From positions 62,001-126,000 of the forward strand of contig OY253682.1 in the NCBI GenBank assembly GCA_958009085.1: a stretch of DNA of 64,000 bases, read 5' to 3'. Positions within the stretch are counted from its first letter, which is position 1. Every line of letters starts with the position of its first letter. Made by a program: the position numbers and the translations under genes. Under the pieces are notes generated by a model that was not told the DNA's origin, did not search any database, and saw only the letters and a program-made list of their open reading frames with translations. Of the stretch, positions 18,128-64,000 are shown one piece after another. The DNA comes from Protoeuglena noctilucae (Eukaryota).

Positions 18128-21100
18128 ATGGCCGGGTGGGACGGATGGCGCAGCAAGGGGCCCAGGCATCTCGGTTGAGGGATGTAGGAAACTGTCGCGA
18201 TGCGCGGGCTGCCGACCGGCCCGCGAAAGCGGCTGGCGAGGGAGGTGTGGGGCTGCCCGTGTCCGCGCGCGCCGGCGGAGTCCGCTTGGTCTAGTAGGCA
18301 CGGCCCCGCACTGGCCACACATCGTTCTCCCCGCGCAGGTCGTGGACGGCTCGCGGCGATAGCGGAGAGCCCCGCGGGGCCAGTCCCAACGCGCGACACG
18401 TGCGCTGCGGAGGGCAAGGAAAACGCCGCCGACGGTGCGCTCTGGCCGAGGCGCGCCTGATGCAAAAAGCAAAGCTGTTTACTGCCAACCGGAACGCGCT
18501 GCGTGCCCCGCGCATCCGCAGAGGCCGGGGTCGGGGCCGCGTCGCTGCGTGCGAAAATCGACGTCCTGCGCCGCGAGTCCGAAATGCGCGCCGGGAGGGT
18601 CCCCCAAACGGACGGCGCCGGGGATCGTGAGGTTCCCATGTCGCTGCAGGCCGTGGTGAATGACCTCGTGGCAGACCCGGACTTCCACACGCGCGTGCAG
18701 TCCATCCTCCACGCCCAGCTGACCAGCACCAAGGACGGAGGTGGGGCATGCTCTAGCGGCCATTGCGCTGTGCGGGACGTGTCCTTGCGCCGGCCTCGCC
18801 TCGCGCAGCCCCAGAGGGTCACTGCTCACTGTCGTTGTGACGGACTGACCGCCCTTGCGCACCTCGCCATGTGCGCAGCTACCAAGGAGGGCCGCATCCG
18901 GGAGCTGGCGGACATGGTGAAGCAGTGCCGCAAGGTCCTCCGCGAAGCCATGGGCCGCATGGAGCAGCTGGGGGGCGCGGCACGTCAGTTCGAGACCGCG
19001 GCGGCGCAGGCCCTGGAGCGTGCCCAGAGAACTGACACAGCACCGGGGCTGTCGGAGCGCATTTCGGAGACGCAGGCCGCGGCGCAGATCAAGATGCTGC
19101 AGGCGGAGGTGCTGGAGGCGCGCACCGCATTCAAGAACCTCCAGGCGCAGGCGAGTGGGGCGCACGTGGGTGTGTGGGGTGCATGTGGGGTGCAAGCGAT
19201 AGGCGGCAGGAATGAGGGCCGGGTGTGACATAAACGGCATGTTCATGGCACTGAAGACCTCTAACTCCACCCTGTCAACCCCTCCCCTCTCCACTCCCCG
19301 CAGGCCCAGGTGCAGAGTGACCGCCTGACCGGCCAGCTGAGCGGCGCGATGCGGGAAGTGGACCGTCACAGGCAGGAGAAGGAGCTTGCGGAGCAGTTCC
19401 AGAGGAGGGCGGAGGAGAAAGCGGCGAAGGTGGAGTCGGAGGTGCGGCAGATGAAGCGAGAGTGCCGCGACCAAGTGCGGGCGGCGGAGGCCGAGGTCGA
19501 CGCCCTGCAGAAGCAACTGGCCGAGGTGAGGGGGACAAAGAAGGGTGTTGAGATGGATAGTGAGATCGACGCCCTGCAGAAGCAACTGGCCGAGGTGAGA
19601 GGGGGACAAATGGGGGGCTTAAAAGGGACAAAGGGGACGACGCACTTTGCATGTGGATGCAATCGGGTCTGTGTCTGCGACGGGGCGTGCCTGGTTGGGT
19701 TGCGTGGGTGGCACCGTGCGATCCCTGCCATGAACCCTCTCTCTAGCTTTTCTACCACCTCACAACTCACCTTTTCATAGAAAACACCGTCCCCGCATCG
19801 CAGGCCCAGCGTTCGCACCAGGCCGAGCGTGACCAGCTGGCGGCGAGGCTGGGGGAGGCGGAGAGGCGACTGGCGGAGGCAGAGACCCGGGTGGCGGCGC
19901 TGGGGAGGGACCTGGCCGATACCACACGGGCCAAGGCGGCACTGGAGGTGAGGGGCGATGGCGGTGGTACAGCAAGATGGCTTGACACATGCAGCAGCAG
20001 CAGCAGCGACCATCGCAATGGATCGCTCGGTGTTGTTCGTGGCACTGAGTGGAAAGTGCTTCATTATGACTGCTTAGCGTGTTGCAGTAGCAGAGATTGT
20101 GCTGTGTGTTGCGTGACCCGTTTCGTGCTGTGGCCGATCCCAGAAGGAGGCGGCGCAGCTGAAGGGCGCCAACGGGGGCCACCAGGCGCTGATCGCTCGG
20201 CTGGAGGGCGACGCGGCGGCGCTGTGGACGCAGCTCGAGTCGGCGCAGCGGGGGTGGGCGGCGGCGGAGGCGGCGCTGGGGGTGGCGAGGGCGGAGGCTG
20301 CCGAGTGGCGGGGGCGGGCGGAGCGGGCGGAGCGGGAGGGCGCTGAGGTGGCGGAGCGACTGGGCGCGGAGAGGGACAGCGCAGAGGCGGCGCGCGCGCG
20401 GGCGGCGGCGGAGGCGGCGGCTGCGGTGGAGGAGGCACGGGGTCTGCGGCGCGAGGTGGCGGGGCTGCAGGGGGAGCTGCGGGAGACCCGGACGGCCAAG
20501 GACCGGCTGAAGGAGGGGCTGCAGGAGGCGTCGGAGCAGCTCACAGCGCTGGGGGAGCAGCTGGCACAGGTAGGGTTTGGTGGGATGGGGGCACGGGCGG
20601 GGCTGGGTTGCAGGGTGGAAGGGCAAGAGTGGGTGGGGGGGGCAAGATGACTGGCTGGGGTGGTGGAAGTGGCAGGGATCTACACATATAGAGATGCTTG
20701 GTGCTTGTTGTTACTCACTGTGTACCTGTGTCCCCTTACTGTCGCAGGCGGGGCGCACGGAGGCGGAGTTGCGTGCGTCGCTGGCGAGCGCGGAAGAGGC
20801 GGCGGCATCTGAGGGGGAGGGTCGCAGGGCTGCGGAGTCGCGTGCCGAGAGGGCGGAGGCGGAGGCGGCGGAGGCGGTGGGGGAGCTGGAAGCAACGAAG
20901 AGGAGGTGAGAGGGTGTGAGAGGAGAGGTGGCATAGGGGTGGGGGTGGGGGTGGGGGTGGGGGTGGGGGTGGGAGGGATGGTCACATGTATGTCATGGGA
21001 GGAGGTCACCGTGCCCAGAGCGTCCTTTGCGTGTGTTGTGCCATGCCCAATGTCCTTTACAACTGGCAGCGGCAGGTTTGCCTCACGCCACCCATCTCAC

Positions 21101-23558
21101 CCCAGGACGACCGATACATGCTCACCCCGCCACCCCACTCTCTATCCACCCAGGGCCCGCGACGCCGAGACGAAGCTGGAGGCGATCGAGTGCGAATTAG
21201 AAACTCTCAAGGACATCGCGGGGGGCGGGGGCGACCAGAAGGACCTGCTCAACCGCCTCATCGCCAAGGTCGGGCAGCTGGAGGCGGCGGCTGCTGAGAA
21301 CGAGGCCAGGCGCCGGGCGCTGCAGAACGAGGTCCTTCAACTCAAGGGCAACGTGCGGGTGTTCTGCCGGGTCCGGCCGGGCAAGGCGGGGCCGACCGCG
21401 GTGCAGTGCCTGCCGGACCGGGCGTCGGTGGCGGTGGCGCAGGGGGGCAAGGACCACGCCTTCTCCTTCGACCGGGTGTTCCCCCCGACCGCGGGGCAGG
21501 CCGAGGTGTTTGCGGAGGTGGCCGAGCTGGTCCAGTCGGCGCTGGACGGCTACCAGGTCTGCCTGTTCAGCTACGGGCAGACAGGGGCCGGCAAGACCCA
21601 CACGATGCAGGGGCAGCCGGGGAGCCCGTCGGCCCGCGGGGTCATCCCCCGTGCGGTGGACCTGATCCTGGACAGTGCGGCTCGGATGGAGCGGCAGGGG
21701 TGGCGGTTCGCGTTTGAAGCGGCGTTCGTGGAGATCTACAACGAGCAGATACGGTGAGCAGTGGGTGGGTGGATGAAATGGATGAGAAGTGATGAGTAGA
21801 TACGGTGAGGGGGTTGGGTGTTGGGGGATGAGATGGGGGAGATGTAAGAGGTAGATACCGTGAGGGGGTGAGTGGGTGGATAGTTGAGATGGGGGACGTA
21901 TGAGCAGATACGGTGAGGGGGTGGGTGGGTGAGTGAGACGAGGGATGCATGGAAGCATAAGGCCTGTGCTTGCACGGCACACCTCTCCACACCCACTGTG
22001 CCTCTCCCCACCCCCATCAATCAACCCACAGCACGTCTCTTCACCCCAATCACTCAACCCACTGCCTCTCTCCCCACCCCCCACCCAGGGACCTGCTGGC
22101 GTGTCGCCGCGGCGGCAGCAAGATCGACGACAAGAACCCCATCAAGCACGACCCGGACACGGGGGTGGCTGTGGTGCAGGGGGCCGTGAGGGAGGCCATT
22201 TCGTGCTGCGAGGACGCGCACGACATGATCCGGAGGTGAGGGGGCTTGGGAGTGACAGACGGGACGGGGTCACGAACAATGAATGTCAGTACATGGGAAC
22301 GGTCTCTTACACCCTCTCCCTGGCACTCTGCCACACGGCCAACCCCACAGCCCCTCACCTCCCTCTCGCTTCCCCTCCCCAGCGCCACCCCCTCTCTCGC
22401 CAACCCCTCACCCCCCTCTCGCTTCCCTTCCCCAAAGCCACCCCCCTACTCCCTCATATCCCTTCCTCTCCCTTGTCCCACTCAGGGCCAACGCCGCGCG
22501 TGCCACCGAGTCCACGGCCATGAACGCCGAGTCCTCCCGCTCCCACTCGGTCTTCATGATGTACATCACGGGGACACGCGAGACGACGCAGACACGACTC
22601 ACAGGCGAGAGGGGCCATGGTGGGGGTGGCGACTGTGGTGCAACGGCTGTGCTGTGCTGTGCTGTGCTGTGCTGTGCTGTGCTGTGCTGTGCTGTGCTGA
22701 GCTCACCCATCGCATAGACACCTTTCTCCTGTCCCCTTCTCCATTGCCACCCTATCACCTCACACCCCCTGTGCCCCATCAACACCCACCCTCCCGCCAC
22801 CCCGCAGGCGCCCTCAACCTGGTCGACCTGGCTGGCTCCGAGCGCCTCGACCGCTCTCTGGCGGAAGGGGCGCGTGCCAAGGAGGCCATCCAGATCAACA
22901 AGTCTCTCTCTGCGCTCGGCGACGTCTTTGCTGCCCTCAGCGCCAAACAGACCCACGTGCCGTACCGGTGAGGTGCAGGGAGGGAGCGGTGCGGGCGGGC
23001 GGATGCGAGCTGGACACGCTTTTGCTCATTGGAATGGCCCTGGCTACCCCTGGCGCCCCTTGTGCCACACTGTAGTTAGTCACAGTCGCCCTCTACTACT
23101 ACACCTCGCTCCCCGCAACCGCCCACCTGCCTACGCGCACCCCCAGGAACAGCAAGCTGACTCACTTGCTGCAGCCGTGCCTGGGCGGCGACGGCAAGAC
23201 GCTCATGTTCGTCAACATCAGCCCGGAGCCCGACAGCGCGCACGAGACGGTCTGCTCCCTGCGGTTCGCAGCGCGTGTCAACCAGGCGAGGGGCGATGGG
23301 GGAGAGTGGCATTGCGAAGCACGAAATGCTTTGGTGCAGGGTAATCCCCAGGGTAAGGGTAAGGGTGAATATAGCTCCGGACAGTAGTTGCCACCTGAGA
23401 GCCATGTGCGCCCGTGGCCCGTGCAGTGCGAGACGGCGGCGAGGGGTGGGGCCCGAAGGACGGTGACGGTGGCTGGGGAGGAGCCCGAGGGGGCCAAGGC
23501 CCCGAGAGCCAGGCCCACGACGGCCCCTGCCACTCGTGCCAAGCGAGCCCGCGTCTGA
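18128..23558 (+). CDS. Kinesin-14 (C-terminal motor, KIFC1/Kar3/ATK-like); multi-exon, start uncertain
   Basis: Coiled-coil stalk, then neck [31 protein letters not shown]-loop [63 protein letters not shown]-terminal KEN box (GKENAAD). Confidence 0.93.
22646..22698 (+). repeat. (GCTGT)n pentanucleotide microsatellite in a kinesin intron
   Basis: About ten tandem GCTGT units visible directly. Confidence 0.9.
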
Positions 23559-30763: not shown

Positions 30764-33700
30764 ATGCTGGGGTCGGTGATAGAGGCTTACCTGGCGAGGG
30801 TGGGTTTGGTGGACCACCATGCGCACAGGTGAGGGCTCACTGGAGCGCGGACGCGCCCCGCCGCCTCATCTGCCGCGGCCGCGCGGAGGAAGTGGGCCGC
30901 CCAGCGTGGTCGGTTCGGCGGGGAGGCCGCGCGGGCCTGAAGGGGGGATGGCCCGCGTGTTCGCCGCAGCCTTGCAACGGAGGAGGCGTGGGGGGACATT
31001 TCGCTCGAGTCTGTGATGACGGAGGCCAGAGGGTGAGCTACCTGGCGACGCGCCACTGTGACGAGAGAGCCCGCGTGTCGCGACCGTGCGCGGGCCGCGC
31101 CTCGCCACTCTCTCAGCCACGATCCGCCTCGGATGGCGTCCGGGGAGCCGCATGCGCCCACCTCCCGCTGCAGGACTGCGCTTTTGGTCCAGGCGTCGTC
31201 CGTTCCAGCACAGACGAGGGCGCGCAGGATTTTGCAATTGCTGTACGGCGTTCAGGACCCCGATGATCTTGACGACTGCCGCGCGCGTCTCGGGCTCGTC
31301 GGGACGGCGCGCAAGGTGGGGGGCACAGCGTGCAATCAATCGCCCATGCCACCTCCGCCGCCGCGTTTGCGGGCGCGCGCTCGCCCCGGCCGGCCGAGCA
31401 TTTGCATTTTCCCTTCTCCATCGCAGTGTTTTGAGGGTCAATCGGTCCGCGCGCTGTTCGTCGACGACGGCGTTCCGAGCCCAAAGCTCCGGCCGCTGTC
31501 CGCCGTGGCGTCGCTCCTGCCAGCCGGAATCCCCGTCCACCGCATCGTGCGGGCTGAGGACGTCCTCGAGCAGATCCTGACGCTCTGCAGAGCCGTGGTC
31601 GTCGCCCAGACGGACGCCGCCCAGCAGGCGCGCTCGCCCCCGGCCCCTCTCCCGATGCCGCCGATGGTGCCGCCCGTGCCGCCCCCTCCGCCCCCGCCCC
31701 CGCCCCGCAAGATCAGCTCGCACCCGACCGCCACCTTCGCGCACTCGAGCGTCGCCGCCACGATGGCCGCCGCCAACGCCGGGCGCTTCTGGTCCGAGCC
31801 GGGGGAGCTCCGCCCCGCTCTGTCGATGCAGAGCAGCGCCAGCGCCCGCGCCCTCACCACCCCCGCGTTCGCGGCCCACTCCCCCGCCTCGGCTCTCGCG
31901 CGCGCCCTGGGCCCCGCGTGCGTTGACGCCGTCTCCGCCCTCTGCGCCCACGCGGCGCTGCTCCCCAGCGGCGCCGTGTCGCTGCCCGTCACGGCTGCCA
32001 CCCTCACGCTGCTGGGGCAGGCCCTGGCGGCGGCGGTGGACGCCGCCGTCGACGCCGGGGCCGTCGCCGTGAAGCTCGCGACGGCCTACCGCGCCCCCAA
32101 GGGCCTGGCCGTGCGTCCCAGGGAAGAAGCCGAGGCGGCGGCCAGGGCATCCGATGATCTGCTGGTCGGCCCCGGGGAGATGAGGCTCGCGGGGCACCCC
32201 ATCCTGGAGTGGCTCGGTAAGAGACGAGGATTGGGTGGTGATCATTGTCACAGTTAACACCGTGTTGGCGGCCTAGTGGTGCGGTCCTTCGTGTAACAAC
32301 TGAGCGACCCTTCATACGCCACCCTTCACCCCCCCCCCCGCAGTGCACCAGGCCACCCCACCCATCCCACCCATCACTCACCCCCACCCTTGATACCCCC
32401 CTCCCATCGCAGTGTACCAGGCCATCGAGGCCGCCGCGTCGTTAAAGGTCCCCGTGCAGGTCCACACGGGCTTCGGCGACGTGGACCTGCGGCTGGACCA
32501 GTCCAACCCGCTGCTCTTCCTGGAGGCGATTCGATTCGCCGACCAACGGGGCGTGCCCCTGGTGCTCCTCCACACCTCGTATCCCTTCTGCCGGGAGGCG
32601 TCGTTCCTCTGCGCCAACTACGCCTGCATCCACCTCGACCTCTCCCTCGCCATCCCGCTCCTGTCGTGGGCGGGCATGACCGAGGCCGTCGCGCAGTGCA
32701 TGCACCTCGCGCCCATCTGGTGCGTGCCCGTGCGACTGGGCGTGCGGTGGTGCTCGTGCATTGGCATATGCGTGGTAGTGTGTGTGTGCATGCGGGTCAC
32801 GACAGGTGTGGGCGTGTGTGTGCATGCGGGTCATTGCGCTCGTGCGTGTGTACCCATGCTTGCTCCCCTTGCCCTCGCAGCAAGGTCATGATGTCCACAG
32901 ACGGCCACACCCTGCCCGAGATGTTCTTCCTGGCCATGGCGTGCGGGAGGCGCGTCCTGGCCGACGTGTTAGCAGACATGGTCGAGGGGTGAGGGGCGCA
33001 TACGTGTGTGTGTGCGTGCGTGTGTGCGTGATGGGGCATGTGGCAGACTGATGCTGAATGGCAGGGTCGAGGGGTGAGGGTGCATGTCAGACTGGGTGCA
33101 TCTGACCATTGGCCCACCCAGCTGGCCACCACCGCCATAGCCCAACTCTCTTCCCTCCCTTCTCCCCCAGGGGCGACCTGGGTGCCGAGCAGGCATTGCA
33201 GCTGGCGGCGGACGTGTTTGTCAACAACGCAGCCAGGCTGTACTCTGCCGCGCACCTGCAGCCGGCACCGACGCCCACCGACGACGACAGGGCTGCCGCG
33301 GGTGCGTGTTTGTGTACTGGCATCTGACTGTGCGTGCGTGTGTGACATGGCACCTGCCTTTCATTGTTACTCTCAAGGGGCACTCGCATGCACTTGGCAC
33401 CAACACAGCCGCGGTCTCTCGCCATCCCTCACAGTCACTATCCCCCCTTACTTCACCTGCAAGCATCTCGCTTCCTACAGCCATCCTTCACGACCACTAC
33501 CCCCCCTTCACCCAACACCAACTGCCCAGCATCTCCCGTTTCCTGCAGTGGCGCTGGCGTCAGAGTCCCGCGTCCGCCTGGCCACGCTGGTCCGTCCCGG
33601 CGACAGCGCGACGCTGCGGTCGATGCCCATGCGGTGGCCCGTGCCGTCCATTGACTCTGAGGTCGGGGGATCGGGGCAGGTGCTGATGGCCGAGCGGCAG

Positions 33701-36700: not shown

Positions 36701-36735
36701 ATTCCCAGGTCCGCCGCTTCCTTTTCACCTTCTGA
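30764..36735 (+). CDS. NodGS/FluG-like fusion: N-terminal amidohydrolase plus C-terminal glutamine synthetase I-like domain; multi-exon
   Basis: LVDHHAH metal motif, RALFVDDG, PVQVHTGFGDVDLRLDQSNP, VLLHTSYPFCREA, KVMMSTDG. Then the GS-like domain: GEVRLTPD, GSELEFQL, HAESAPGQFEV, GNASHLHLSL, NKEAPLR, FEYKLSDATANAHL. Confidence 0.92.
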
Positions 36736-36971
36736 GACGCCCGACTGGGATGCAGCGTCATCGACATCGGACACCCCACATGATGTCACGGTTCACCCGG
36801 GCCCCAGCACCAAAAACACCGCGTTGTACCACTCGCACGACGCAACCATCATGTGACGCGACGCCCCACCAACGCACGTCATACACCGCAAAGCAACGCC
36901 CCAGCACCCGTCGCGCGGCCTCCCAGCACCGCCGCCCCGCCGGGCGCACCTCCCACGGCGCAAGCAACGCC

Positions 36972-37015
36972 CCAGCACAGCACAGCACAGCACAGCACAG
37001 CACAGCACAGCACAG
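36972..37015 (+). repeat. (CAGCA)n microsatellite (reverse complement of the GCTGT repeat), followed by degenerate CAGCACTG units to about 37130
   Basis: Tandem CAGCA units visible directly. Confidence 0.85.
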
Positions 37016-38155
37016 AGGCCCCGACATCACTGGGCACCGCAACAGCACTGTAGCAGTGCGTGCGCACCAACAGCACTGCGCTGCAACAGCACTGCAGCAA
37101 CAGCACTGCGCCCCAACAGCACGCCACTGCGCCGGTGCTGGTCCGCCCCGCATCCGCCGCACCCCCCCGGCTCTCCGCCCTTTGCTGGCTCCCCTCCCCC
37201 GTCAGTCGCTGCCGCGTGCACCGACGAGCTCTCTGCCCCAGCAGGTCCTGTTGCGTGCATCGATGGGGCCTCTGCGCCACCGGACCTCCCTCCCGACCAC
37301 CCCACTCCGCCCCTCGCTGCTGCCGAGCCGGCCCCGCGCACCGTAGCTTTGCACGTCCAACTCTCGAGCCATACCCTCTCCCGCGACCCTCGCCTGTTCC
37401 CAGTGCCCTGATCGTCGTTTGTCGTTTGTCGTTTGTCGTTCTAGCCATGTTAGCCGCCTAGCTCTCTCTTAGCCCTAGACTAGCTCCTTTAGCGCATGTT
37501 GTGTTCTGGTTGTGTTGCTAGCCCCACCCCGCCTGTGTCCGTTAGACCTAGCCTGGTAGATCCTAGCCGCGCCACCCTCGCCCTTTCCGCGCCCCTTTGT
37601 TTCCCGTCGTTGGCGCCAGCATCGTCACCACCCCTGCGCGTATGCGTTCCCTCCGCGCAGCAGAGGCGGCAGAGGTTGTCCTCGTACCGCCGCCCGCACG
37701 CGCACACCCCACCTTTCGCACCCTCGAGGTCGACTGCATTGGGCCTTTCTCCGCTCTCCGTGGGGCGAAGTGTCCCCGCGGAGTGGAATCCGAGCCCGCC
37801 ATTCGCCGCGGGCGTGATTTCAGTCTTTGAGGGCAGTTTCCGTGCTTCGTTGAACTGCTGCAATACACGGCTGCCACGCCGGCAGGGTTGCCGGCTGCAG
37901 CATGCCAGAAGCAAGGCCGCGCCAGCGTTCCAAAACGCATTGCGCGCGACGGAGATCGTCATCCGCGAGAAGCGAGCCACGTGACAGCATCGAAGCGTCG
38001 CGAGGCAGCAGAGAAAGGGTTTTTCTTGTGCACCCGCGCCTGCGCGTCTCAGTATTGGTTTCCTGGCGCGTCGAAGGGCTTCCCTTCGCTCGACTTGCAG
38101 CCCTGCAATCGAAACATCGAGTCGCGCCGGTCTTGCCTGGTTCCGGCCGGCGGGC

Positions 38156-39868: not shown

Positions 39869-39943
39869 CCTATCATGGCTGGTTGGCGCCACTCATCATG
39901 GCGAGACGTGGCTCATGAGGGACATGACTCATATGCATATATA

Positions 39944-44265: not shown

Positions 44266-44705
44266 GGCAGGCGACAGCGGGGTCAGACCGCCCGCGCGGT
44301 CCAGTGGCTATCCCCCGCCAACCCTAACGTCACTTTTGCGTCACGATGGGGGACGCTTCGCATTTCAAAAGCGCGACTCGGAAACAAGCAACCACGATGG
44401 ATCCGTCAACGCCGATTCAGCTGAGCTGGAGCCTCAAGACGCGCCAGAGAGCAAACGAGCTGGCAGCGCCTGCGCCAGTCGCTCGACATGGGCGCCCTGT
44501 TGAATGCAAATGCCCCTGCCTTGGCACGAGACAGAATCTCATAGCCCGTTTCTGATAGTGCGCCCCTCCCCGACAGCGTAAGGGGGGCGGGGTTTGTGGC
44601 ACGTGGATGCGTTGCTGCCTGTAATGTCGCCATAGCGTCGTGATAAGCGGTTGCGATAGTGTCGACGCTTCTCGCACCGTCTGGGAGGGCAGCTGTGTTA
44701 AGGAC

Positions 44706-50700: not shown

Positions 50701-53700
50701 TCACCCAGGACTCCCTCACGTTAACTCGGCCCAACCGGTTCGGCAACGCTCTGAACAGCCTGGGTATGACCAACACGGTCAGGGGGTCGCTGGCGTCCGA
50801 TCTGCTGCTGGCCGAGATTCGCAGGGCCGCCGAGGCGGGGTTCCGGCCGGACGAGACCAGGAGGGTGAGTGGGGTTGGGGATAGTGAGGTTATTGATTGT
50901 TGATAGTTAATGATTAATGATGTGTGATATGGGTGGTGGTAGAGCTGGTGTGGTGTCGCTTGGTGGGTTCCGGCCGGACCAGACCAGGAGGGTGAGTGGG
51001 GGTTGGGTAGGGATAGTGTAGCATTGCTATAAGTGATATCTACTTCCTTCAGCACTCCCTCTCCCTCATCCCCACTCACCACTCACCACTCACCCCACCC
51101 CCCTCCCACTCCCCCCCAGGCCCTCCAGGCCCTTCGGCCCCCGACCGTCATCGCCGACCCCTCCCTCCCCAAGGGTGACTACGCCAGATTGGGCGTAGGA
51201 AACGCAGTGGCGCAGCCGCAGCGATACCGACTCGTCGCCACCAATCTGTCGGCCATCCCGACCCGGGTGGCCGTGGCGTTCGAAGAATTCGCTGCCCACG
51301 GCTCGCCTGCTCTGGACGCCCTGTTGAGGCCCAGAGCGGGGCAGGGGGGTGCGGGGGATAGGGGTGCGGGCGCTGGGAATGCCAAGCGGCAGGGGAACGG
51401 GGGCGGGGAGGCGGGGGCTGCGGCAGGGCGGGTGGGGGGTGACCGTGATGGTCATCATGCGCACAATGGGGAGTGGGGGGGTGAGGGGGAGATTGACAGA
51501 GGCGATCGCAGTCCCTCGTCGCCGGGGAGCCCGCGGACCGACGGGGCGGGCACGGCGTCCACTTCTGGCAGCCCCGTCACCAGACGCGCCCGTGCCAGAG
51601 ATGGCAGTGTCGGGGGCGTGCGCCCGGCGGGGGCGTCGCTGGCGGACGTGGCGACGGCGCAGGTGCTCGCGGGCCGCGCGAAGCAGCGCGTGAAAGAGAG
51701 GGCGGCGCACGGGGGGGCGCCGTTCCGACTGGGCGGTCCCGGCGGGGGCGCCCCTCACCCCACCAGCACCGCCACTGGTCACACCACCCACCACAGTGGC
51801 AGTAACAGTAACAGTATCGCAAAGCACGTTGTCACGAGCGGCGGGGTGGGATCGACGGCCTACCGCAGCCACACAGGGCAGCGTATGGTGGCGGAGCAGG
51901 GGGTGCACATGCAGGGCCGCCGGGCGTTGTCCCACAACAAGGGGCTGGCGTTTGTATTTGAGAAGCAAGTGCTGGACTTGCCCCCCATGGAGGAGGTGGC
52001 GTTTGAGTTCACAGCACATTGCAACATGCCGGGGGTGTACGCGGACGTGCTGCGGATGCGGGCGGTGGGGGTGGAGGACCAGAGCATCCCGGTGCAGGTG
52101 AGGGGAGATGAGAGATGGATGAGTGTGTGAGAGAGGGAGGGTGCAGGTGAGGGGTGGGGTGGGGTGCGGTGGGTGAATGTGTGTGAGAGAGAGGGGGTGC
52201 AGGTGAGGGAGGGCAGAGGTGGGGTGGGTTGCGGGGGTAACGAGGGTTGCTGGGTGGCGCAGCGTGGCATGACCTCACCTTAGCAACTCCCTCCCACTCC
52301 TTCTTACCACTTCAACCATCCCCACTCATCCTAACGCATGCACACTCACCCCCTCCTATTCTCTCAGATCGGCTTTGTGGGCTCTGCGCTGGTGATGCAC
52401 AAGCACCGCAGGCACACGCACGGCTACGCCTTGGAGGGGCAGGACACCGACGTGGCCATCCACGCGGGGGACGTGACGAGGAACACGCAGGCGAGTGGTA
52501 ATGTAATACTGACTACCATCTTTAATTAGTAATCATATAGTGACTGGTATTTGGTGAAAACGACGCGGCAGTCCACACACACAGTCACTCCCTCACTTAC
52601 TCCCTCACTCCCTTCCTCACTCCCTCCCTCACTCCCTCCAATCACTCATATACACTTCCCATCCCCATCCACAGATCTCCAAGCAGCTCTTCGTCACCAA
52701 CGTCTCCCCCTTCCCGGTCCGCCTGACCTGGGACTGCCGCGCGGTCATCCCCGATGCACTACTGGCCACGTCTATCTCTGAATATGGCGGAATAGTGGCG
52801 CAGAAGAGACTGGGGGAGGAGGGGTCGGGGGGGAGCGTCGGGTTCGGGAGGGGGGCGGTGGCCAAGCGGCAGCTGAGGGAGCCGGGGGAGAGGTGAGGGA
52901 GTAGGAGTGACGGCGATAGATGTGATGTAGAGTGACTGACTGATAGTAGCCGGGGATTGCTCCACTCCATCTCTTCTCTCACCCTCACTCAACACCCACT
53001 AACCCCCTATCGCCCCCCTGCAGCGTGATTGTGCGTGAGCCGTCGATCGGCCTCCGCCCCCTGCCCTCCAATGCGTCCAAGGTGGTGGTGGGGGAGGACG
53101 GGGAGGGGTTGCCGCCCAGGAGGGAGTCGTCGGACAGGGGTGAGATGGGTGGGGGTGGATGTGCATGTGTTTTGGGTGGGTTTGGGGGTGGATGTGAGTG
53201 CATGTGGGGGTGTGCATAGGGTGCATGTGAATGCACGTGAGGGTGGATGTGGGAGTAGGTGAGGGATAATGGGGGTGGTGGATGTGGGGTGGGCATCCTC
53301 TTTCCTTCACTGCACCCGTGCGCTCACCCTTCCCCTGTCACCCCATCCCTCCCCACCCCACTCACCCCTCCCCACCCCTCTCACCCCCACAACCACCCAT
53401 CCTCCCCTCCCCCCCCCCCAAGACCGCGTGACCTTCCTGGGCAGCCCCGGCAGCGACGTGTCAGAGTCATCGAGTGAGGGAGAGGGCAGTGACTCGGAGG
53501 GTAGCCAGGACAGCCAGGAGGCGTGGGAGACGTGGAGGAGGGAGAGGGAGATCGAGAGGAGGTGAGATTAGATATAGATTAGATATAGAGATAGATATAG
53601 AGAGCATGTGTGTGTGTGGGAGACGTGGAGGAGGGAGAGGGAGATCGAGAGGAGGTGAGTGGATGGGTGTGGGTGTGAAGATGGGTGTGGGTGTGGTTGT

Positions 53701-53714
53701 GGGTTATGGTGTGC

Positions 53715-53752
<38 letters not shown>

Positions 53753-55935
53753 TTGCTCTGCTCCCCCCCCGCTCCCCCCACAACCCCCCACCTCCCCACC
53801 CCACTCGCTCCCTCCCCCACCCACCCACAACCCACAAACCCCCCCTTTCCCCCAGCCGCCCCCGCTCCCTCATCCGCCTCGACATGTCCCCCGGCCCCAC
53901 CGGCCGCATCCGAGTGTCCATCGACCCGGTATCGATCCCCATTGATGACCCCAACACCCTCGCCATTGAGCCAAGAGAAGTCGTGATCGCACCGGGCGCC
54001 ACCCACCCCTTCCACGTCTCCTGCACCACCAGCGGGGACCTGTCGGCTGGCCGAGTGTTCTTCTATGGAAAGCAGGAGCCCATATGGCCAGACGCCCATC
54101 ATGCACCGCACGCAACAACCACGCACGCAATCGACGGTGCCCGTCACGGCGGCGGTGACAACGCAGACGAGTCGACAGCAGCTGCGCGAGATGGAAAGCA
54201 TGCGATTGCTACCCACGCGGATGCAAATCACGCCAACGGCCACTCTCTTGCGATCACCCACAACGCCCACGCCACCGCTCGCACCGCATATGGGGCTGCG
54301 CCCTCTCACACCCCCCCAGCCGCCCCGCTGCGCGTGCACCTGCTCCCGCGCCCGTTTTCTGACAACTACGACTTGCTGTGCGTCGGGTCTTACCACCCGT
54401 GGGCCCACCGACCCGACTTGGACATGGGAGTGTTGCGGGTGCAACTGTCGATGACTGTGGTGGAGGCACAGCTAGGCACGGATGCAAGGGACGGCCTGTC
54501 CTTGCACGTCCACGCGAACCGCGCTCCGGGGGACCCCCAGTTCGCCCGATCGCTCACGCTCACCAACCACACCGCCACGCCCCTCGTGTTTGTGGCTGAC
54601 ACAAGGCAGCCCTTCGATCTTCTGGACCCCGTGCCCCCGCGGCCCGAGTGCTTTTTGGATCAGTCGGCGTTCCCATTCCCCGTGCGGAGGGGGCGGAAGG
54701 TGAGGGGGTGTTTGTGGGGGGTGGGTGGGTGTGGGGTGGTGGTGGGGGAAAGGGGTGTGTTTGTGGTTGTGGGGGGTGGGGTGCGGAGGTGGTGCATGCA
54801 TGTGGGGTAGTAAGGGATGCGGGATGGAGATGAGAAGGGGGGTGGGGGTGCCGGGGTCTATTACTCATACTAACGTATGCTCAATACCACCCCTCACTCC
54901 GACTCACCTCCCCTCTCAGGTCGTGCACCTCCTCCCCCACGAGTGCCTGGAGCTGCCCGTGCTGTTCCGCGAGCCCGAGGAGCAGGAGGCAGCGACCGAC
55001 GACTACGGCGTGGACGGGGAGCTGCTGGTCACCTTCGCCAACCGGGAACAGCAGGTGACGACTGTGGAGTGTTAGATATACATGGATAGATATGTGATGA
55101 TGTGCGGGTGATGAGAATGGAGGCTGCGTGTCATCCACCCCCACCACACGGCACGCCACACTCACACTCACTCTCACATGTACTCTCACTCTCACTCTCA
55201 CACTCACCCCCTCTCTCTGCCCCCCTCTCCCCCCCCAGGTCCTCCCCCTCCGCGCCCAGGTCATCCACCCGGAGCTCACCGTGCAGCCGGAGTCGATCAA
55301 ATTTGGAGCCGTCCACGTCCTCGCGCCCAAGCCAGCGCGCGTCGTGCTCACCAACCCCACCGGTGAGCGGTGTTTCAGAGGGAATGGGGGTGTGTGCATG
55401 TGTCTGTGTGTGTACCTCACCAACCCCACCGGTCAGCGGTGTTGAGAGGGAGGGGGGTTGTGTGCATGGCTTGTTGGTGGGCAAGTCAGTGGTCAACTCG
55501 GTTGTTACCTCAGTGGTGCTGTACACCCACATCCACTGCACTCCTCACCTACCCCGCGCATTCCACACCCACTCACCTACTAACCCCCACTTCCCCCCCC
55601 CCTACTCCACAGATGCCGACGCCGAGTGGGTGGTGGTCGAGAAGGGCCAGAAACCCCAGTTCCGCGGCGCAGCGGCCGCCTCACAGGGCCCCACCTCCGC
55701 CCAGATCGGCGCCTTCACCGTCGAACCCTGTTCCGGGGTCATACCCGGCCGCGGCCTGCTCATGCCGCGCAGCCAGGTGGTCAGCGTCACGCTCGCGCCC
55801 AAGCAGGCCGCGCCGGTGGCGAAGGAGCTCGTGTTTGCGGTCCGGCGCGGGCGGGCGTGCCGGCTGAGGGCGTCGGGGGTGGGGACGCACGACGAGGCCG
55901 AGGAGCACCAGAGGGCGCTCAAGACGCTCGCGTGA
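44706..55935 (+). CDS. DLEC1: DLEC1 / FAP81 (CFAP81) ASH/PapD-domain axonemal central-pair protein; about 20 exons
   Basis: FRRNPRF, VEFREYHPGGYFEAEVALRNVS, GVIAPGLHCLVRVRFSPDSLADYDDAL...RRPPPSLTL...DCG, MVCDNCNVRVF and further Ig-like ASH repeats (LDFG...RTLTLRN) match the DLEC1 architecture as I recall it. Confidence 0.88.
53717..53751 (+). repeat. (TG)n dinucleotide microsatellite at the G-rich/C-rich switch of a DLEC1 intron
   Basis: Uninterrupted TG run visible directly. Confidence 0.92.
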
Positions 55936-56377: not shown

Positions 56378-57610
56378 TCACTGGTCCTTCTTCCCCTCCA
56401 CCTCCCCCTCCCCCGCATCCTCTCCCGACTCCTCCCCCTCTCTCTCCTCCTCCTCTCCCTTATCAGCACCCTTGGCGTCCGCACCCGCCCCGCTCGACCC
56501 CGCGCCCGCGTCGTCGGTAGGCGCCTTGATCACCTTGCCCTTCTTCTTTTCCTTCTTTTCCTTCTTCTTGTCCTTGCGCTCCGGCTCGAGCATCCTGGGG
56601 GCGCTCCGGCTCGAGCATCCTGGGGGGATGGGTGGGGGGTGGGGAGTGACGCATGATGTGGCGTGTGATGGCGAGGTGGTAACACGAGGCTCGCTCGGGA
56701 GCATCGCTGGGTCAGTCATCATCAGCGGCTCTGGTTGATCGGATCAACCACTCTTAGAACACTCACTTGTCCTCGAAGTTGTTCATGTTGATGCCCAGCA
56801 TAGAGAACAAATCGCTCGTGGGGAACGGGCGCTGGCGGGTCCCCTCGGCGGGCCAGCCCAGGAGGTGGATCTGGAAGATCTTGTTGTCGAGGATCTCCAG
56901 CGGCGCCTGCACGATCTGGAGGATCGGGGCCAGCTTCCACTGGTAGTAAAGGAAGCCCGCAATGGCGGCGCCGAGGAGCGTGCCCGTGAACTCCTTCTGG
57001 AGCTGGGCCTTGTCGTAGTCCATTGCCGTCTTCTTCACGCGCTTCTGTAGGCAGGAGACGGGCGGGGGCGCGGTGGGGCGCGGCGAGGCAGAGGGGAGTT
57101 GGCCCGCTGACGACGGGCGGGGGCAGCGGCTCGCCTTGACGCCCGCCGCGTCCCGCTCGATCTCCGTCACTTCCGACATGTCCTTCTTTCGGTTGATGAT
57201 CATCCCGGACAGAACCGTGAGGGCCAGCTGCGGTGGGCGGGGAGGCGATGTGCTCGTAGGTCCCGGCAGCGGCTCCCGACGAGCGCGGATCGTTGGCCGA
57301 CGCGGCTCAGGAGACGAAGAAAGCGAGGCGAGCGCGCGGGACGGGCCAGAGGCCCCGGGCGAGCTCGCCGAGGGGCGCGCGCATCGTTCGGCGCGCTGGT
57401 GTCCCCGTGGACGCAGGGAGCGGCCGGGGGGGAGATCGGGCCGCGGGAGCAAACCTTGAGGATCACGAGGGCCGCGAAGACCTGGATCTGGATGTGCACG
57501 GGGAACGCCTCGTTGACGCGGGTGCGGAACATCATCACGCCGAAGGGCAGGACCATCTTCACGGTCGCCAGCGGAGACGGCGGCTGAGCCACCGTGCCTG
57601 CTGACGCCAT
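56378..57610 (-). CDS. PHO88: Pho88/SND3 family ER membrane protein (SRP-independent targeting); 4 exons
   Basis: Hydrophobic N-terminus, then TAMDYDKAQL...GFLYYQWK...PLEILDNKIFQIHLLGWPAEGTRQRPF, resembling the Pho88 core. Lys/Glu-rich tail ends in KKDQ (KKxx ER retrieval). Confidence 0.75.
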
Positions 57611-61653: not shown

Positions 61654-61769
61654 CTTGGCTTTCAATGCAGCAAGCAATTTGCATGCACCAGCCGACCGCG
61701 CGTGCAAGGCCCATCGACGGAACTCATCGTCGAGCGCAACAACTGCTGCACAGCACCCGCGAACGCCCT

Positions 61770-64000
61770 CTACTGGCTGGCGTACATGCGCTTGATCTGC
61801 TCGGCATACTTCCTCTTGATCTGAGGCCGGCGAAGCTTGAAAGACGGCGTGATGAGCCCGTTCTCGACGGTAAAGGCCTCCGACGTCAGGTGCACCTTCT
61901 TGACCATCTCGAAGCCCCGCAGGTGCCCCTCCCGCCCCGTGGCCTCCAGCTCCTCCATGATCCACTTGTTGGCAGCCGGGTGCGCGCACAGCGCAGCGAA
62001 GTCCCCCTCGATGCCGTGCCCGGCCGCCCATCCCTTGATGGTCTTCTCGTTGGGCAGCACCACCGCCACCACGTACTTCTCCGACGGCTGCGAACAGGAT
62101 CGCTTGAATTATTTACATCTTAGCCAGGTGCTAGCGCGTCTCCTCCGCCGCTGCGGGCCCTCACCTCTCCGTGGACGAACATCTGCTCCACCGCCGCGTT
62201 CTTCTGCAAGACGGACTCCACGTACTGCAGGGGCGATTAAAGTGCATTGAGTAAGCACAACTACTGCACCAGGAGCTGCTGCAGTCGTTCCAAAAGCACC
62301 GCATGTGATCAATCGGCTCCCTTGTCGCTCACCTCGGGTGCGATGTACTCCCCCTGCGCGAGCTTGAAGATGTTCTTGAGTCGGTCGATGATGCGGAGCG
62401 CCCCGTTGCTCTGAATCTCCCCCACGTCGCCCGTGTGGAACCATCCGTCCCTGCGAGCACCACGCAACGCAGCGTTGCGGTCCAGCCCTAACGTGCTGCG
62501 ATGTAGCCCTGCAAAACCCGACCAGCTCTTACTTGAGCGCGCTCTCCGTCTCTGTCTTGTCCTTGTAGTATCCCTGGAAGAGCCCCGTCCCGCGGATGAG
62601 GATCTCCCCGCGCGGGGGGTCCCCCCGAGCGTCATAGTCCATCTCTGGCAGACTCTCAAGACAGAATTCGGTGCCAGGGGTCGGGAAACCGACCGTCCCG
62701 AAGAAGTCCTACCACTCGGCGCCGATGAAGGACGCCGCGCACGTCTCTGCGCGGGGGGGCAGAGGGCAGAGGTGGGGGTGGGGGCGAGGGGAGCGCATGC
62801 CATGGCATGCCACACGGTGCGACAGGATGTCCACCCCAGCAGCGATAACACTGTAAGCTGAGCCAGTGCATCGGTGATAGTCAAGATGCGACTGCAAAGC
62901 TCTCCACAGCGCAGGCTGAGCCAGCGCACCTGGCAGCCCTTGCCAAAGCCCATTCCCTACCAGCCCTTACCGGAAAACCTTACCCCTCCCCCGCACCCTT
63001 GCTGGCACCCGTCACCCGTGAGCCCGTACCCTCATATCCCTGCCCATCCCTGCCCCCCTACCATCGCTCACCCGTAAGCCCGTACCCCTGCGCAAACTTG
63101 GCCCCCAGCGCCACACGCACGAACTCCTCGATGTGCGCGGGCATCGCCGCGGCGCCAGACACCACCACGCGCACCCGCCCGCCCAGCCTGGCGTGGATGT
63201 CAGAAAACGCCAGCCAGTCTGCCAGAGGCGAGGCGGTGTCCACGGGGAACCCCTCCATGAGGAAACTCCGTTTGCGCGAGAAGGCCCACTGGTAGACGGT
63301 GCGCCGCAGGACGCTCTTGCTGAGCTGCGACTGGACGGCCTGGTAGATGCGGTCGAAGATGCGAGGGACCCCGGGCAGCACAGTGGGCTGCAGCTTGGCC
63401 AGGTCATCCATCAAACCCCGCACGTGGCCCCGCCAGTACCCGATGGCGCATCCGCAGAAGGTCATCATGTCCTCGCAGGCCCGCTCGAAGATGTGGGCGA
63501 GCGGGAGATAGGAAATCATAACGTCGCCCGCCCACTCGATGTCCGCGCACTGCTTGGTCATGTGCATGAGCGAGAAGAGGACGTGCACGAGCGAGCGGTG
63601 CGTGAGCATGACGCCCTTGGGGTTGCCCGTGGTGCCCGACGTGTACATGATGGTCGACAGGTCGTCGGCGGAGGGCGGGTCCGGGGGGGCCGGAGACTCG
63701 TGGCCCTGCACCATAAACTCGCTGAAGGACGCTGCGTAGGGGGGAAAGAGAGAGTAATAAGTAAAGAACATGTGAGAGGCAAGGAACGCTGAGACTGTGC
63801 CATATCATAGAAGATACGCAACATTACAGCCAGCCAGGGCGGGCAGGCAAGCGTGTATCGGTGACTTACCCAAGCATGCACAAGCATGTGCAGGGGTGGT
63901 GCGTTATGTAAGGACCACGCATGCGCGCATCAGCAGTCTCTGCAATCTCTCACCGGTCCGCACATTCGTGGGGATCTTGGAGAGCTCTTCCTGCCCAGGC
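61770..64000 (-). CDS. LACS: Long-chain acyl-CoA synthetase; 5'-partial, multi-exon
   Basis: AMP-binding motif [76 protein letters not shown]. Confidence 0.95.

What the first reader, a model, noticed from the sequence alone, without database searches (positions are those of the whole stretch)
19497..63090. Pervasive 'junction echoes': exon ends plus their splice site are re-copied inside the adjacent intron
Seen: in at least 18 places a 15-45 nt string spanning a real exon/intron boundary recurs one to three times within about 25-160 nt, inside the same intron. Donor echoes (approximate positions): 19497/19566; 21743/21794/21902; 32980/33065; 35235/35362; 35796/35865/35925; 40234/40159 (minus); 46776/46865; 47990/48125; 50838/50964; 52091/52140/52196; 53523/53616; 55347/55416; 63069/63013 (minus). 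Acceptor echoes: 32339/32408; 34662/34720/34787; 35586/35693; 40435/40528 (minus); 50476/50604; 56575/56601 (minus). They occur in six genes (kinesin, NodGS, EEP, DLEC1, PHO88, LACS), on both strands, mostly in long low-complexity introns. Inference: a mutational or recombination process targeted to splice junctions that lengthens introns and creates spare splice sites. I know of no named element with this pattern.
Basis: partly seen in the sequence, partly recalled or inferred. Interest (0 to 1): 0.85.

Follow-up and report, generated by a model that had tools for sequence, protein, structure and literature searches.

The report
Splice junctions copied into algal introns
In this GC-rich marine alga about a quarter of the introns examined carry one to three extra copies of their own exon-intron border, a repeat type already named "mirage" minisatellite in lancelets and known from a few human genes, here unusually frequent and visibly lengthening introns.

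Summary
All 19 listed sets are in the sequence. An unbiased scan gives 51 local repeats against 0.23 in shuffles. RNA contigs show that only the outermost site, first donor or last acceptor, is spliced in the 6 sets they cover. Contigs from two other samples reproduce the copies.

They are tandem duplications of 49-136 nt carrying 7-48 nt of exon plus the splice signal. The copies decay as neutral DNA would. Subtracting them removes the length excess of their introns (270 vs 180 nt).

"Targeted to junctions" is only partly supported. Simulated uniform duplication already puts 65% of detectable events across a junction. Observed is 17 of 18 (p~0.005). Units also hold less exon than expected (21 of 22 under half; p~1e-6).

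A name does exist: "mirage" minisatellites in amphioxus (PMC3087553), and human F7 intron 7 (PMC1557585). This scan has already met the pattern in sea urchin, annelid, camelid and shark DNA.

New here are the host and the density: 20 of 77 modelled introns.

The parts
19493..19610 (+). Donor echo in the kinesin gene. Unit 69 nt. Donor GT at 19526, echo GT at 19595.
   Evidence: 34 of 34 nt identical ungapped; gapped score 81. The 69 nt are in frame with no stop. The spacer has GC3 0.62 and coding score 0.08, against 0.89 and 0.36 for the exon, so the first donor is inferred to be the real one. No RNA evidence.
21743..21931 (+). Donor array in the kinesin gene. Unit about 53 nt, 3.6 copies. Donor at 21754, echoes at 21805, 21860 and 21913.
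   Evidence: TRF: 73% matches, score 184. Self-alignment score 120. PWM scores: real 4.7; echoes 6.4, 4.3, 6.4.
32307..32424 (+). Acceptor echo in NodGS. Unit 62-69 nt. Echo AG ends at 32343; the real intron ends at 32412.
   Evidence: Gapped score 45. An RNA contig starts at 32412/3, and its loose letters map to 32186-32215. PWM: real 9.8, echo 10.4.
32980..33080 (+). Donor echo in NodGS. Unit 85 nt. Donor at 32989, echo at 33074.
   Evidence: 16 of 16 nt identical. PWM 7.5 for both. Junction from my gene model.
34627..34806 (+). Acceptor array in NodGS. Unit 58-67 nt, 3 copies. Echo AGs at 34666 and 34724; real acceptor at 34791.
   Evidence: TRF period 58, 2.6 copies. Gapped score 104. RNA contigs of X8 and X10 splice 34522-34791.
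35235..35400 (+). Donor echo in NodGS. Unit 127 nt. Donor at 35266, echo at 35393.
   Evidence: 39-nt block with 35 of 39 nt identical. RNA contigs splice 35266-35696. Only the block aligns, not the spacer.
35494..35743 (+). Acceptor echo in the same NodGS intron. Unit 107-114 nt. Echo AG at 35589, real acceptor at 35696.
   Evidence: 133 nt aligned at 76%, more than one full unit; score 96. RNA-verified acceptor.
35796..35952 (+). Donor array in NodGS. Unit 61-69 nt, 3 copies. Donor at 35811, echoes at 35880 and 35941.
   Evidence: Score 84. Spacer-to-flank similarity z=11.2. RNA contigs splice 35811-36084.
40159..40267 (-). Unit 75 nt. Real donor at the 40242 end of intron 40074-40242; echo near 40167.
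   Evidence: 26 of 26 nt identical. PWM 8.0 for both. Junction from my gene model only.
40415..40628 (-). Acceptor echo in the same gene. Unit 95 nt. Real acceptor at 40459, echo at 40554.
   Evidence: TRF period 95, 1.9 copies, 82% matches. Score 98. PWM: real 9.3, echo 8.8.
46774..46934 (+). Donor echo in the DLEC1-like gene. Unit 90 nt. Donor at 46802, echo at 46892.
   Evidence: 33-nt block, score 25. Gapped score 62. PWM: real 6.3, echo 6.2.
47965..48198 (+). Donor echo in the DLEC1-like gene. Unit 131-136 nt. Donor at 48008, echo at 48143.
   Evidence: About 100 nt aligned at 74%, of which 43 nt are exon.
50391..50642 (+). Acceptor echo in the DLEC1-like gene. Unit 119-126 nt. Echo AG at 50483, real acceptor at 50609.
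   Evidence: 39-nt block, score 35. 126 nt aligned at 76%, a full unit. PWM: real 6.7, echo 7.2.
50838..51007 (+). Donor echo in the DLEC1-like gene. Unit 127 nt. Donor at 50865, echo at 50992.
   Evidence: 37-nt block, score 33. Gapped score 75. PWM 7.5 for both.
52091..52229 (+). Donor array in the DLEC1-like gene. Unit 49-56 nt, 3 copies. Donor at 52098, echoes at 52147 and 52203.
   Evidence: Score 69. An RNA contig ends at 52097, and its loose letters map to 52368. PWM 8.0 for all three.
53523..53659 (+). Donor echo in the DLEC1-like gene. Unit 93 nt. Donor at 53562, echo at 53655.
   Evidence: 44 of 44 nt identical. The spacer is not alignable to the following flank in plain letters (z=2.7). 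The letters were read.
54682..54794 (+). Unit 49 nt. Donor at 54700.
   Evidence: Gapped score 47. 18 nt of exon at 67% identity.
55223..55266 (+). Additional set: two tandem acceptors 21 nt apart (55238 and 55259). Both are in frame.
   Evidence: TRF period 21, 2.1 copies. Letters. PWM 10.7 and 9.3. Which one is used is not known.
55347..55468 (+). Donor echo in the DLEC1-like gene. Unit 69 nt. Donor at 55363. The echo at 55432 carries GTCAG.
   Evidence: Score 77. Spacer-to-flank similarity z=7.3. Echo PWM is -0.1 against 4.5 for the real site.
56576..56626 (-). Its junction status is unverified.
   Evidence: TRF: 100% matches. It lies downstream of the Pho88 stop, at the start of a Lys/Glu-rich ORF in my models. 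No RNA was laid there.
63012..63090 (-). Donor echo in the LACS (AMP-binding) gene. Unit 56 nt. Real donor at the 63071 end of intron 62747-63071; echo near 63015.
   Evidence: 20-nt block, score 16. Gapped score 35 with 16 nt of exon. PWM: real 5.5, echo 5.0.
14412..14503 (-).
   Evidence: TRF period 30, 3 copies, 71% matches. The letters show that the echo has lost its GTGAG.

Best explanation
These are 'mirage'-type minisatellites: short tandem duplications (units 49-136 nt, 2-4 copies) that straddle an exon-intron border.

Steps that are shown:
1. A unit holding the last 7-48 nt of an exon (or the first 12-47 nt of the next one), the splice signal and a longer piece of intron is repeated head to tail.
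2. In the RNA contigs, splicing uses the outermost copy, that is the first donor or the last acceptor. The mRNA is therefore unchanged and every inner copy is simply intron.
3. The inner copies drift as neutral DNA.
4. Each event lengthens an intron of about 175 nt by roughly half.

Steps that are inferred:
1. The duplications arise by replication slippage or unequal exchange. This is favoured by the G-rich tract at the 5' end and the C-rich tract at the 3' end of these introns.
2. Duplications inside exons are purged unless they are in frame.
3. Duplications that carry much exon context are purged because the inner site would then compete with the real one.

Together with simple geometry (units nearly as long as the introns), these points make most surviving, recognisable duplications junction-spanning. 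No junction-seeking mechanism is needed.
For: Tandem structure.
- TRF finds arrays at 21743, 34646 and 40421.
- Gapped self-alignments cover a full unit or more, or three or more copies, in 7 arrays: 21743, 34627, 35796, 52091, 40415, 35494 and 50391.

Outer-site use. RNA joints and loose ends cover 6 sets.

Neutral decay. In the 14 alignments with at least 38 nt of intron, the exon-derived part is 87.9% identical and the intron-derived part 74.1%. That is a divergence ratio of about 1:2. This is expected if only one of the two exon-derived copies is free to change.

Cost of using an echo. Using an echo donor would bring an in-frame stop in 15 of 17 cases.

Geometry.
- The simulated uniform null gives a 65% junction share (805 of 1231 detected events).
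- For short units of 20-39 nt, where geometry predicts few junction hits, 0 of 8 arrays span a junction (1.2 expected).

Selective filter. 10 of 11 TRF arrays lying in my exons have periods that are multiples of 3.

Intron length. 270 vs 180 nt, and 173.5 nt after subtracting the units.

Intron ends are low-complexity. G falls from 49% to 16% and C rises from 13% to 53% from 5' to 3'.

Precedent. Amphioxus mirages occur at both 5' and 3' borders and do not disturb splicing (PMC3087553 passages; PMC3902484 passage). Human F7 intron 7 uses only the most upstream donor (PMC1557585).
Against: - The junction share is still above the null: 17 of 18 against 0.654, p=0.005. If long-exon placements are removed from the null it is p=0.0003.
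- The exon share of the unit is under one half in 21 of 22 alignments, against 46% simulated (p~1e-6). I explain this by selection, without a test.
- In about half of the pairs the spacer shows no clear similarity to the flank that a simple tandem duplication predicts: z<2 in 10 of 20 pairs. This includes the youngest pair (53523, 44 of 44 nt identical).
- Only 2 intron-internal arrays with units of 40 nt or more were found, against 17 bona fide junction arrays.
- No copy-number difference was seen between the window and the contigs of runs X3 and X6, although minisatellites are expected to vary.
- Most junctions rest on my own gene models.
Confidence: 0.6

Rival explanations
1. A mutational hot spot tied to intron ends. 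Breaks or stalled forks would occur at the G-rich and C-rich tracts beside the splice sites, for example through G-quadruplex or R-loop-prone DNA. Repair would be by templated insertion or out-of-register synthesis. Duplications would then truly start a few tens of bases outside the intron more often than elsewhere.
For: - Excess over the geometric null: 17 of 18 against 65%, p=0.005, or p=0.0003 with the exon-length filter.
- The outer edges of the arrays all lie 7-48 nt into the exon.
- Block-spacer-block cases have no second spacer: 53523, 35235, 50838, 46776.
- Arrays are about 3.5 times denser around introns than in unannotated DNA (19 vs 5, p=0.008).
- A G4 motif lies on the coding strand in the 5' half of 13 of 77 introns, and a C4 motif in the 3' half of 23 of 77. 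Motifs per kb are about 2-3 times those of exons.
Against: - Most of the apparent bias is reproduced by geometry alone.
- Exon-derived sequence inflates the detection of junction arrays. Only 8 of the 18 arrays, all in junction-array introns, remain at or above 42 on intron sequence alone.
- TRF, which needs contiguous similarity, finds 8 internal against 6 junction arrays.
- Only a minority of introns carry a canonical G4 motif.
- No breakpoints could be read, because no unduplicated allele is available.
Confidence: 0.25
2. The inner copies are kept by selection because extra splice signals help splicing, for instance by recruiting U1 or U2 factors or by serving as back-up sites.
For: - 15 of 17 echo donors and all 6 genuine echo acceptors tested are intact and as strong as the real sites.
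- Donor-like sites are enriched in the 5' halves of introns: 80 observed against 47.7 +/- 6.2 in shuffles.
Against: - The exon-derived part, which such a role does not need, is copied along and drifts at the neutral 1:2 ratio.
- One echo donor is already disabled (GTCAG at 55432), and the 14412 echo has lost its signal.
- As a back-up site an echo would give an in-frame stop in 15 of 17 cases.
- The donor-like enrichment includes the 17 echo donors themselves, and only mononucleotide shuffles were used as the control.
Confidence: 0.07
3. Footprints of a mobile element, either introner-like or retroelement-like. The spacer would be the insert and the repeated block a long target-site duplication.
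For: Block-spacer-block anatomy in about half of the pairs. Blocks are of variable length, as with target-primed insertions (this comparison is recalled, not tested).
Against: - No shared sequence family exists among introns. The best local score between different introns has a 99th percentile of 45 and a maximum of 56 in 500 random pairs. Only 14 of 5852 ordered pairs reach 50 in blastn.
- The spacers are 24-113 nt of local-type low complexity.
- Several arrays have 3-4 copies, or full-unit similarity.
Confidence: 0.03
4. Assembly artefact that doubled the junctions.
For: None found. The repeats are short, and the window may come from a metagenome assembly.
Against: - The copies differ from each other by substitutions and indels.
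- DNA contigs of run X3 (organism A) run through all 13 sets in 32300-52299 with 0 other letters and 0 gaps in the listed pieces. Run X6, a different sample, covers many of them.
- RNA contigs splice out the inner copies exactly.
Confidence: 0.01

Closest known systems
'Mirage' minisatellites of amphioxus (Adh3, globins BflGb6/BflGb9, troponin C, PGBD5). Sources: PMC3087553, passages; PMC3902484, one passage. The original Adh3 paper was not seen.
   Same: Tandem repeats whose unit spans an exon-intron border. They occur at either the 5' or the 3' border. The inner copies mostly keep the AG/GT signals. Regular splicing is not disturbed. Unit sizes overlap: 10-160 bp there, 49-136 nt here.
   Different: - The host is a unicellular GC-rich marine alga.
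- Copy number is low (2-4).
- Density is very high: 20 of 77 modelled introns in one 64-kb window.
- About half of the pairs keep similarity only in the exon-plus-signal block.
- The length polymorphism reported for mirages was not seen here (contigs only).
Human minisatellites whose first monomer spans the exon-intron boundary: F7 intron 7 (37 bp), 6-16 intron 2, CBS intron 13, LMNB2, PDGF. Source: PMC1557585, abstract and introduction passages.
   Same: The donor is reiterated inside the intron. The most upstream site is used and the identical pseudo-sites stay silent.
   Different: - Those are single loci with 5-25 copies and only 4 nt of exon in F7. Here there are many loci with few copies and 7-48 nt of exon.
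- Acceptor-side arrays are present here as well, with the last copy used.
- The scanning mechanism shown for F7 was not tested here.
Intron gain by tandem duplication of an AGGT-containing exon segment (the Rogers model). Sources: PMC3265369 passages; PMC2891723 passages.
   Same: Short intragenic tandem duplication is made harmless by splicing. Duplicated splice signals are the key element.
   Different: That model makes a new intron whose 5' end resembles the downstream exon and whose 3' end resembles the upstream exon. Here an existing intron is lengthened, and each inner copy matches the exon on its own side.
Introner elements of Micromonas and Aureococcus. The reference and a one-line mention were seen in PMC9481584; the details are recalled.
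   Same: A marine GC-rich alga, with repeated sequence inside introns next to the splice sites.
   Different: No shared element family among the introns of this window. Here the repeated sequence is the gene's own exon end.

Membership tests
Mirage / junction-spanning minisatellite | Head-to-tail tandem repetition of a unit | tested here: met
   Seven arrays show three or more copies, or an alignment of a full unit or more: 21743, 34627, 35796, 52091, 40415, 35494 and 50391. For block-only pairs such as 53523, 35235, 50838 and 46776 the spacer is not demonstrably repeated, so the feature is inconclusive for those.
Mirage / junction-spanning minisatellite | The unit spans an exon-intron boundary | tested here: met
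   RNA contigs fix the boundary for 6 sets. My gene models fix it for the rest. Set 56576 is unverified.
Mirage / junction-spanning minisatellite | Inner copies carry the splice signal, yet the authentic site is the one used | tested here: met
   Echo PWM scores equal the real ones in 15 of 17 donors and in all 6 genuine echo acceptors (a seventh site tested, 53800, carries no AG). RNA contigs use only the outer site in the 6 sets covered. Contigs drop rare isoforms, so low-level use is not excluded.
Mirage / junction-spanning minisatellite | Copy-number instability (VNTR behaviour) | tested here: inconclusive
   No inserted or missing letters, and no supported DNA joints that remove a unit, in contigs of X3 and X6 over 32300-52299. 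Contigs of two samples cannot show rare alleles.
Intron gain by tandem duplication (Rogers model) | The intron start resembles the downstream exon start, and the intron end resembles the upstream exon end | tested here: not met
   Every repeat pairs an exon end with a copy on the same side of the intron.
Introner / transposon-derived introns | A shared element sequence present in many introns | tested here: not met
   Inter-intron local alignment scores have a 99th percentile of 45 and a maximum of 56 in 500 random pairs. Only 14 of 5852 ordered pairs reach 50 in blastn.
Introner / transposon-derived introns | Terminal inverted repeats and a short target-site duplication of fixed length | not tested
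   No search for inverted repeats was run. The exon part of the blocks varies from 7 to 48 nt.

The most novel reading that the evidence does not exclude
In this alga the ends of introns are true hot spots of a duplication process that starts a few tens of bases inside the exon. Repeated rounds of it would be the main way introns grow. They would also be the source of the polar low-complexity make-up of the introns: G-rich and full of GTGAG-like motifs at the 5' end, C-rich at the 3' end. Much of the intron sequence would then be decayed copies of its own splice junctions. The process would also supply a steady stream of spare splice sites for intron sliding and new exons.
Probability: 0.2. 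Interest if true: 0.7.

Novelty: new member of a known kind. Interest (0 to 1): 0.4.

Why it matters
How introns change length, and where new splice sites come from, are old questions with few directly observable events. This window shows about twenty recent, datable events in 64 kb. Each adds 49-234 nt to an intron and a full-strength spare splice site. Together they account for the whole length excess of the affected introns.

If the same density holds genome-wide, the organism would be a natural system for three things:
- measuring the rate and placement of junction-spanning duplications;
- testing how a spliceosome working on short introns chooses among identical sites, the first donor but the last acceptor;
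- testing the proposal, made for amphioxus mirages, that such repeats seed new introns.

The finding also carries a caution. Most of the striking link to junctions follows from geometry and survivorship.

Tried and rejected
Steps that gave nothing or failed:
- No whole genome is held for this window, so no genome-wide scan was possible.
- The first run of my gene finder over-predicted, with 687 introns. It was replaced by stricter penalties.
- One search was an empty script.
- The search for homologous proteins with 'longer' on exon 51120-52097 found nothing.
- The search for related loci in metagenome contigs with NodGS exon 34021-34521 returned 71 loci at 30-53% identity. None was an orthologous intron-bearing locus, so no comparison with a sister strain was possible.
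- blastn self-hits missed the 44-nt perfect pair at 53523. I replaced blastn with my own Smith-Waterman.
- Earlier-notes look-ups by place found nothing for this genome.
- Six of the eight RNA loose-end strings do not occur in the window. I draw nothing from them.

Readings considered and rejected:
- In-frame alternative donors. Spacings are multiples of 3 in 9 of 17 echo-donor inserts, but 15 of 17 carry in-frame stops.
- Rogers-type intron birth. The copies lie on the wrong side.
- Lariat or cDNA origin. The exon end and GTGAG are contiguous only in DNA or in unspliced RNA. This is reasoning, not a test.

Papers. Searches for the pattern in algae found no report. The library holds only open-access papers and preprints, and supplements were closed.

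Full report
WHAT THE WINDOW IS

The window is 61-71% G+C. It is packed with short exons and introns carrying GTGAG...CAG signals. No whole genome is held for it.

Its DNA is found in full in runs of a coded organism A and in marine metagenomes. About 26-43% of its sampled words are found in marine metatranscriptomes.

Pfam on single exons confirms these genes:
- a kinesin;
- a NodGS-type protein (Amidohydro_2 plus Gln-synt_C);
- a DLEC1-like protein;
- Pho88;
- an AMP-binding (LACS-type) enzyme;
- the glycine-cleavage P protein;
- a UPF0113/NIP7-type protein.

The 'EEP' label was not confirmed on 6 short exons.

Yes.

I ran a scan that knows nothing about genes: direct repeats at offsets of 20-300, scored +1/-3, with score 15 or more.
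- It returns 51 hits, 34 of them not low-complexity.
- Thirty block-wise dinucleotide shuffles return 0.23 hits on average and never a score above 18.

Set 32339/32408 needs gaps (score 45). Set 56576 is a perfect 25-nt doublet whose junction status I could not establish.

Of the 8 'internal' hits that are not low-complexity, 7 are pairs between two inner copies of a junction array. One (32780) is independent. Of the 8 low-complexity internal hits, one is independent (22351), one belongs to the 35796 array, and 6 are microsatellites. No hit copies exon sequence without the junction into an intron.

I found further sets at 54682-54794, 14412-14503 (degraded) and 55223-55266.

ARE THE BORDERS REAL, AND WHICH COPY IS USED?

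RNA contigs from two metatranscriptome runs splice out 34522-34791, 34922-35068, 35266-35696 and 35811-36084. Loose ends join the exon ending at 32216 to 32412/3, and 52097 to 52368. This covers six echo sets. In every one the first donor or the last acceptor is used.

Contigs drop rare forms, so occasional use of inner copies is not excluded.

The other borders come from an exon-chaining gene finder that I wrote and trained on the window. It recovered 3 of 3 RNA-verified introns used as a check, but it is imperfect. It merged genes, missed a kinesin exon that I added by eye, and left 40.7-42.6 kb unannotated.

ARTEFACT?

No.
- The copies differ by substitutions and indels.
- DNA contigs of run X3 cross all 13 sets between 32300 and 52299 without a difference in the listed pieces.
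- Run X6, from another sample, covers many of them.

ANATOMY

With 150-nt flanks, 22 junction alignments score 30 or more.
- Units are 23-136 nt, and 49-136 nt for the 17 with score 42 or more.
- The exon part is 7-48 nt.

Seven arrays are plain tandem arrays. They have three or more copies, or similarity over a full unit or more: 21743, 34627, 35796, 52091, 40415, 35494 and 50391.

In the others, similarity is clear only in a block of exon end plus splice signal. In 10 of 20 pairs the spacer shows no convincing likeness to the flank (z<2). The sharp end of many blocks lies in the G run after GTGAG or the C run before CAG.

Where at least 38 nt of intron align (14 alignments), the exon-derived part is 87.9% identical and the intron-derived part 74.1%. 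That is about a 1:2 ratio of divergence. It is what neutral drift predicts when one of the two exon-derived copies is held by selection.

Inner signals are intact.
- 15 of 17 echo donors score like the real site, and one is GTCAG.
- All 6 genuine echo acceptors score like the real ones; a seventh site tested at 53800 carries no AG.

If an inner donor were used, 15 of 17 would bring an in-frame stop. The exceptions are 19595, which would add 23 residues, and the disabled 55432. For 19595 the spacer has non-coding composition, so I take the first donor as real.

IS THE PROCESS AIMED AT JUNCTIONS?

Three views.

(a) Strict ungapped scan. 17 junction arrays against 2 independent internal ones.

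(b) TRF, which needs contiguous tandem similarity. 6 junction against 8 internal arrays, the internal ones at 72-82% matches and of low complexity.

(c) Gapped self-alignment with other introns as the background. The 99th percentile of scores between different introns is 45.
- At score 42 or more, after merging overlapping alignments, 17 of 18 arrays with units of 40 nt or more span a junction.
- 0 of 8 arrays with units of 20-39 nt do so.

Geometry matters here, because the units are nearly as long as the introns were.
- An analytic null expects 10.2 of 18 (p=2.5e-4) and 1.2 of 8.
- I also ran a simulation: uniformly placed tandem duplications in 46 array-free introns, the observed unit sizes, neutral decay, and the same detector. 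It gave 805 junction and 426 internal events detected, a share of 0.654.
- Against that share, 17 of 18 has p=0.005.

Junction arrays are also easier to detect. When only intron positions may align, 8 of the 18 arrays, all in junction-array introns, still reach 42. Two introns owe their score to internal arrays.

Two residues remain.
- The exon share of the unit is below one half in 21 of 22 alignments, against 46% simulated (p~1e-6).
- A whole-window scan finds 17 bona fide junction arrays plus 2 internal arrays around 18.3 kb of introns, but only 5 in 18.5 kb of unannotated DNA (p~0.008 with my rough exposure estimate). Four of the 21 rows that labels 'junction' are diffuse coding repeats, and I did not count them.

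EFFECT ON INTRONS

The 20 echo introns have a median length of 270 nt and the 57 others 180 nt (Mann-Whitney p=0.004). Subtracting the duplicated units gives 173.5 nt. The units sum to 1951 of 18267 intron nt.

MOST LIKELY MECHANISM

- Shown: tandem copies across the border; use of the outer site; neutral-looking decay; intron lengthening.
- Inferred: origin by slippage or unequal exchange in the G-rich 5' and C-rich 3' tracts (composition gradient); purging of exon-internal events (10 of 11 exonic TRF arrays have periods divisible by 3); and purging of units with long exon context.
- Not settled: whether the intron ends are true hot spots, and what the block-only pairs are.

WHAT IS KNOWN

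The pattern has a name. [quoted passage not shown]
- They are described for globin genes at both 5' and 3' borders, with units of 10-160 bp, regular splicing and length instability. They were proposed there as a source of new introns (PMC3087553, passages).
- PGBD5 and troponin C are further cases (PMC3902484, one passage).

Human genes with a minisatellite whose first monomer spans the boundary include F7, 6-16, CBS, LMNB2 and PDGF. In F7 only the most upstream donor is used (PMC1557585, abstract and passages).

The Rogers model of intron birth by duplication of an AGGT segment is related but predicts a different layout (PMC3265369 and PMC2891723, passages).

Earlier notes of this scan report the same pattern in sea urchin, annelid, camelid, shark and other animal DNA. 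One of them reached the same 'small intron' geometric explanation. Those notes gave me the two paper leads, which I then read.

My seven searches found no report in an alga. The library is open-access only, and supplements were closed.

VERDICT

This is a real feature of a known kind in a new host, at unusual density: 20 of 77 modelled introns, both borders, both strands.

LIMITS

- One 64-kb window.
- My own gene models.
- RNA and DNA evidence from contigs over 20 kb only.
- No sister genome.

Noticed in passing
all 68 modelled introns of 120 nt or more: Strong polar composition on the coding strand. G falls from 49% in the first tenth to 16% in the last, and C rises from 13% to 53%. Donor-like sites are enriched in the 5' halves: 80 against 47.7 +/- 6.2 in mononucleotide shuffles.
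   Followed up: partly
window 53567-53615 vs 53660-53740: The A/T-rich spacer (AGATAT-like) between the two perfect 44-nt copies aligns to the following (TGGGTG)n tract once A and G are merged (z=3.1; 19 A in 49 nt against 5 A in 81 nt). One copy looks as if many G had changed to A. A/T-rich patches also sit in the spacers at 35274-35300, 50890-50925 and 50440-50475.
   Followed up: partly
window 19526-19594: The 69 nt between the kinesin donor and its echo are in frame and free of stops. The inner donor would therefore add 23 residues to a coiled-coil region. My gene finder chose it, but composition argues for the first donor.
   Followed up: partly
window 55223-55266: Two strong acceptors lie 21 nt apart, made by a 21-nt tandem duplication. 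Both keep the reading frame, a difference of 7 residues. Which one is used is unknown.
   Followed up: partly
window 56576-56626 and 56384-56593 (minus strand): A perfect 25-nt doublet sits at the start of a Lys/Glu-rich open frame with high coding score and no Pfam match. It lies just downstream of the Pho88 stop codon in my model.
   Followed up: no
exonic tandem repeats at 10211, 13343, 13499, 13583, 15888, 19849, 20318, 20402, 21282, 34399, 36427: Tandem repeats lying in my exon models have periods of 24, 84, 30, 27, 69, 21, 24, 21, 26, 33 and 27. Ten of the 11 are divisible by 3, as expected if one duplication process is filtered by the reading frame.
   Followed up: no
window 36468, 39027, 46699, 46731, 47865, 51171: RNA contigs of X8 and X10 leave the window at these places with letters found nowhere in the window. 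They could be unmodelled splicing to exons outside my models, chimeric contigs or related genes.
   Followed up: partly
window 36969-37635 and 49642-50308: The word depth of run X3 rises to 291 and 489 against about 90 elsewhere, and that of X6 to 89 against about 8. These stretches hold simple repeats, (CAGCA)n at 36973 and G-rich arrays at 50239-50334, that probably recur across the genome.
   Followed up: no
window 40746-42648: My gene models leave this stretch unannotated, although RNA contigs cover 42058-42466 and exons of the same minus-strand gene flank it. It holds two tandem arrays, 40813-40940 and 41744-41939, which may be further intron arrays.
   Followed up: no
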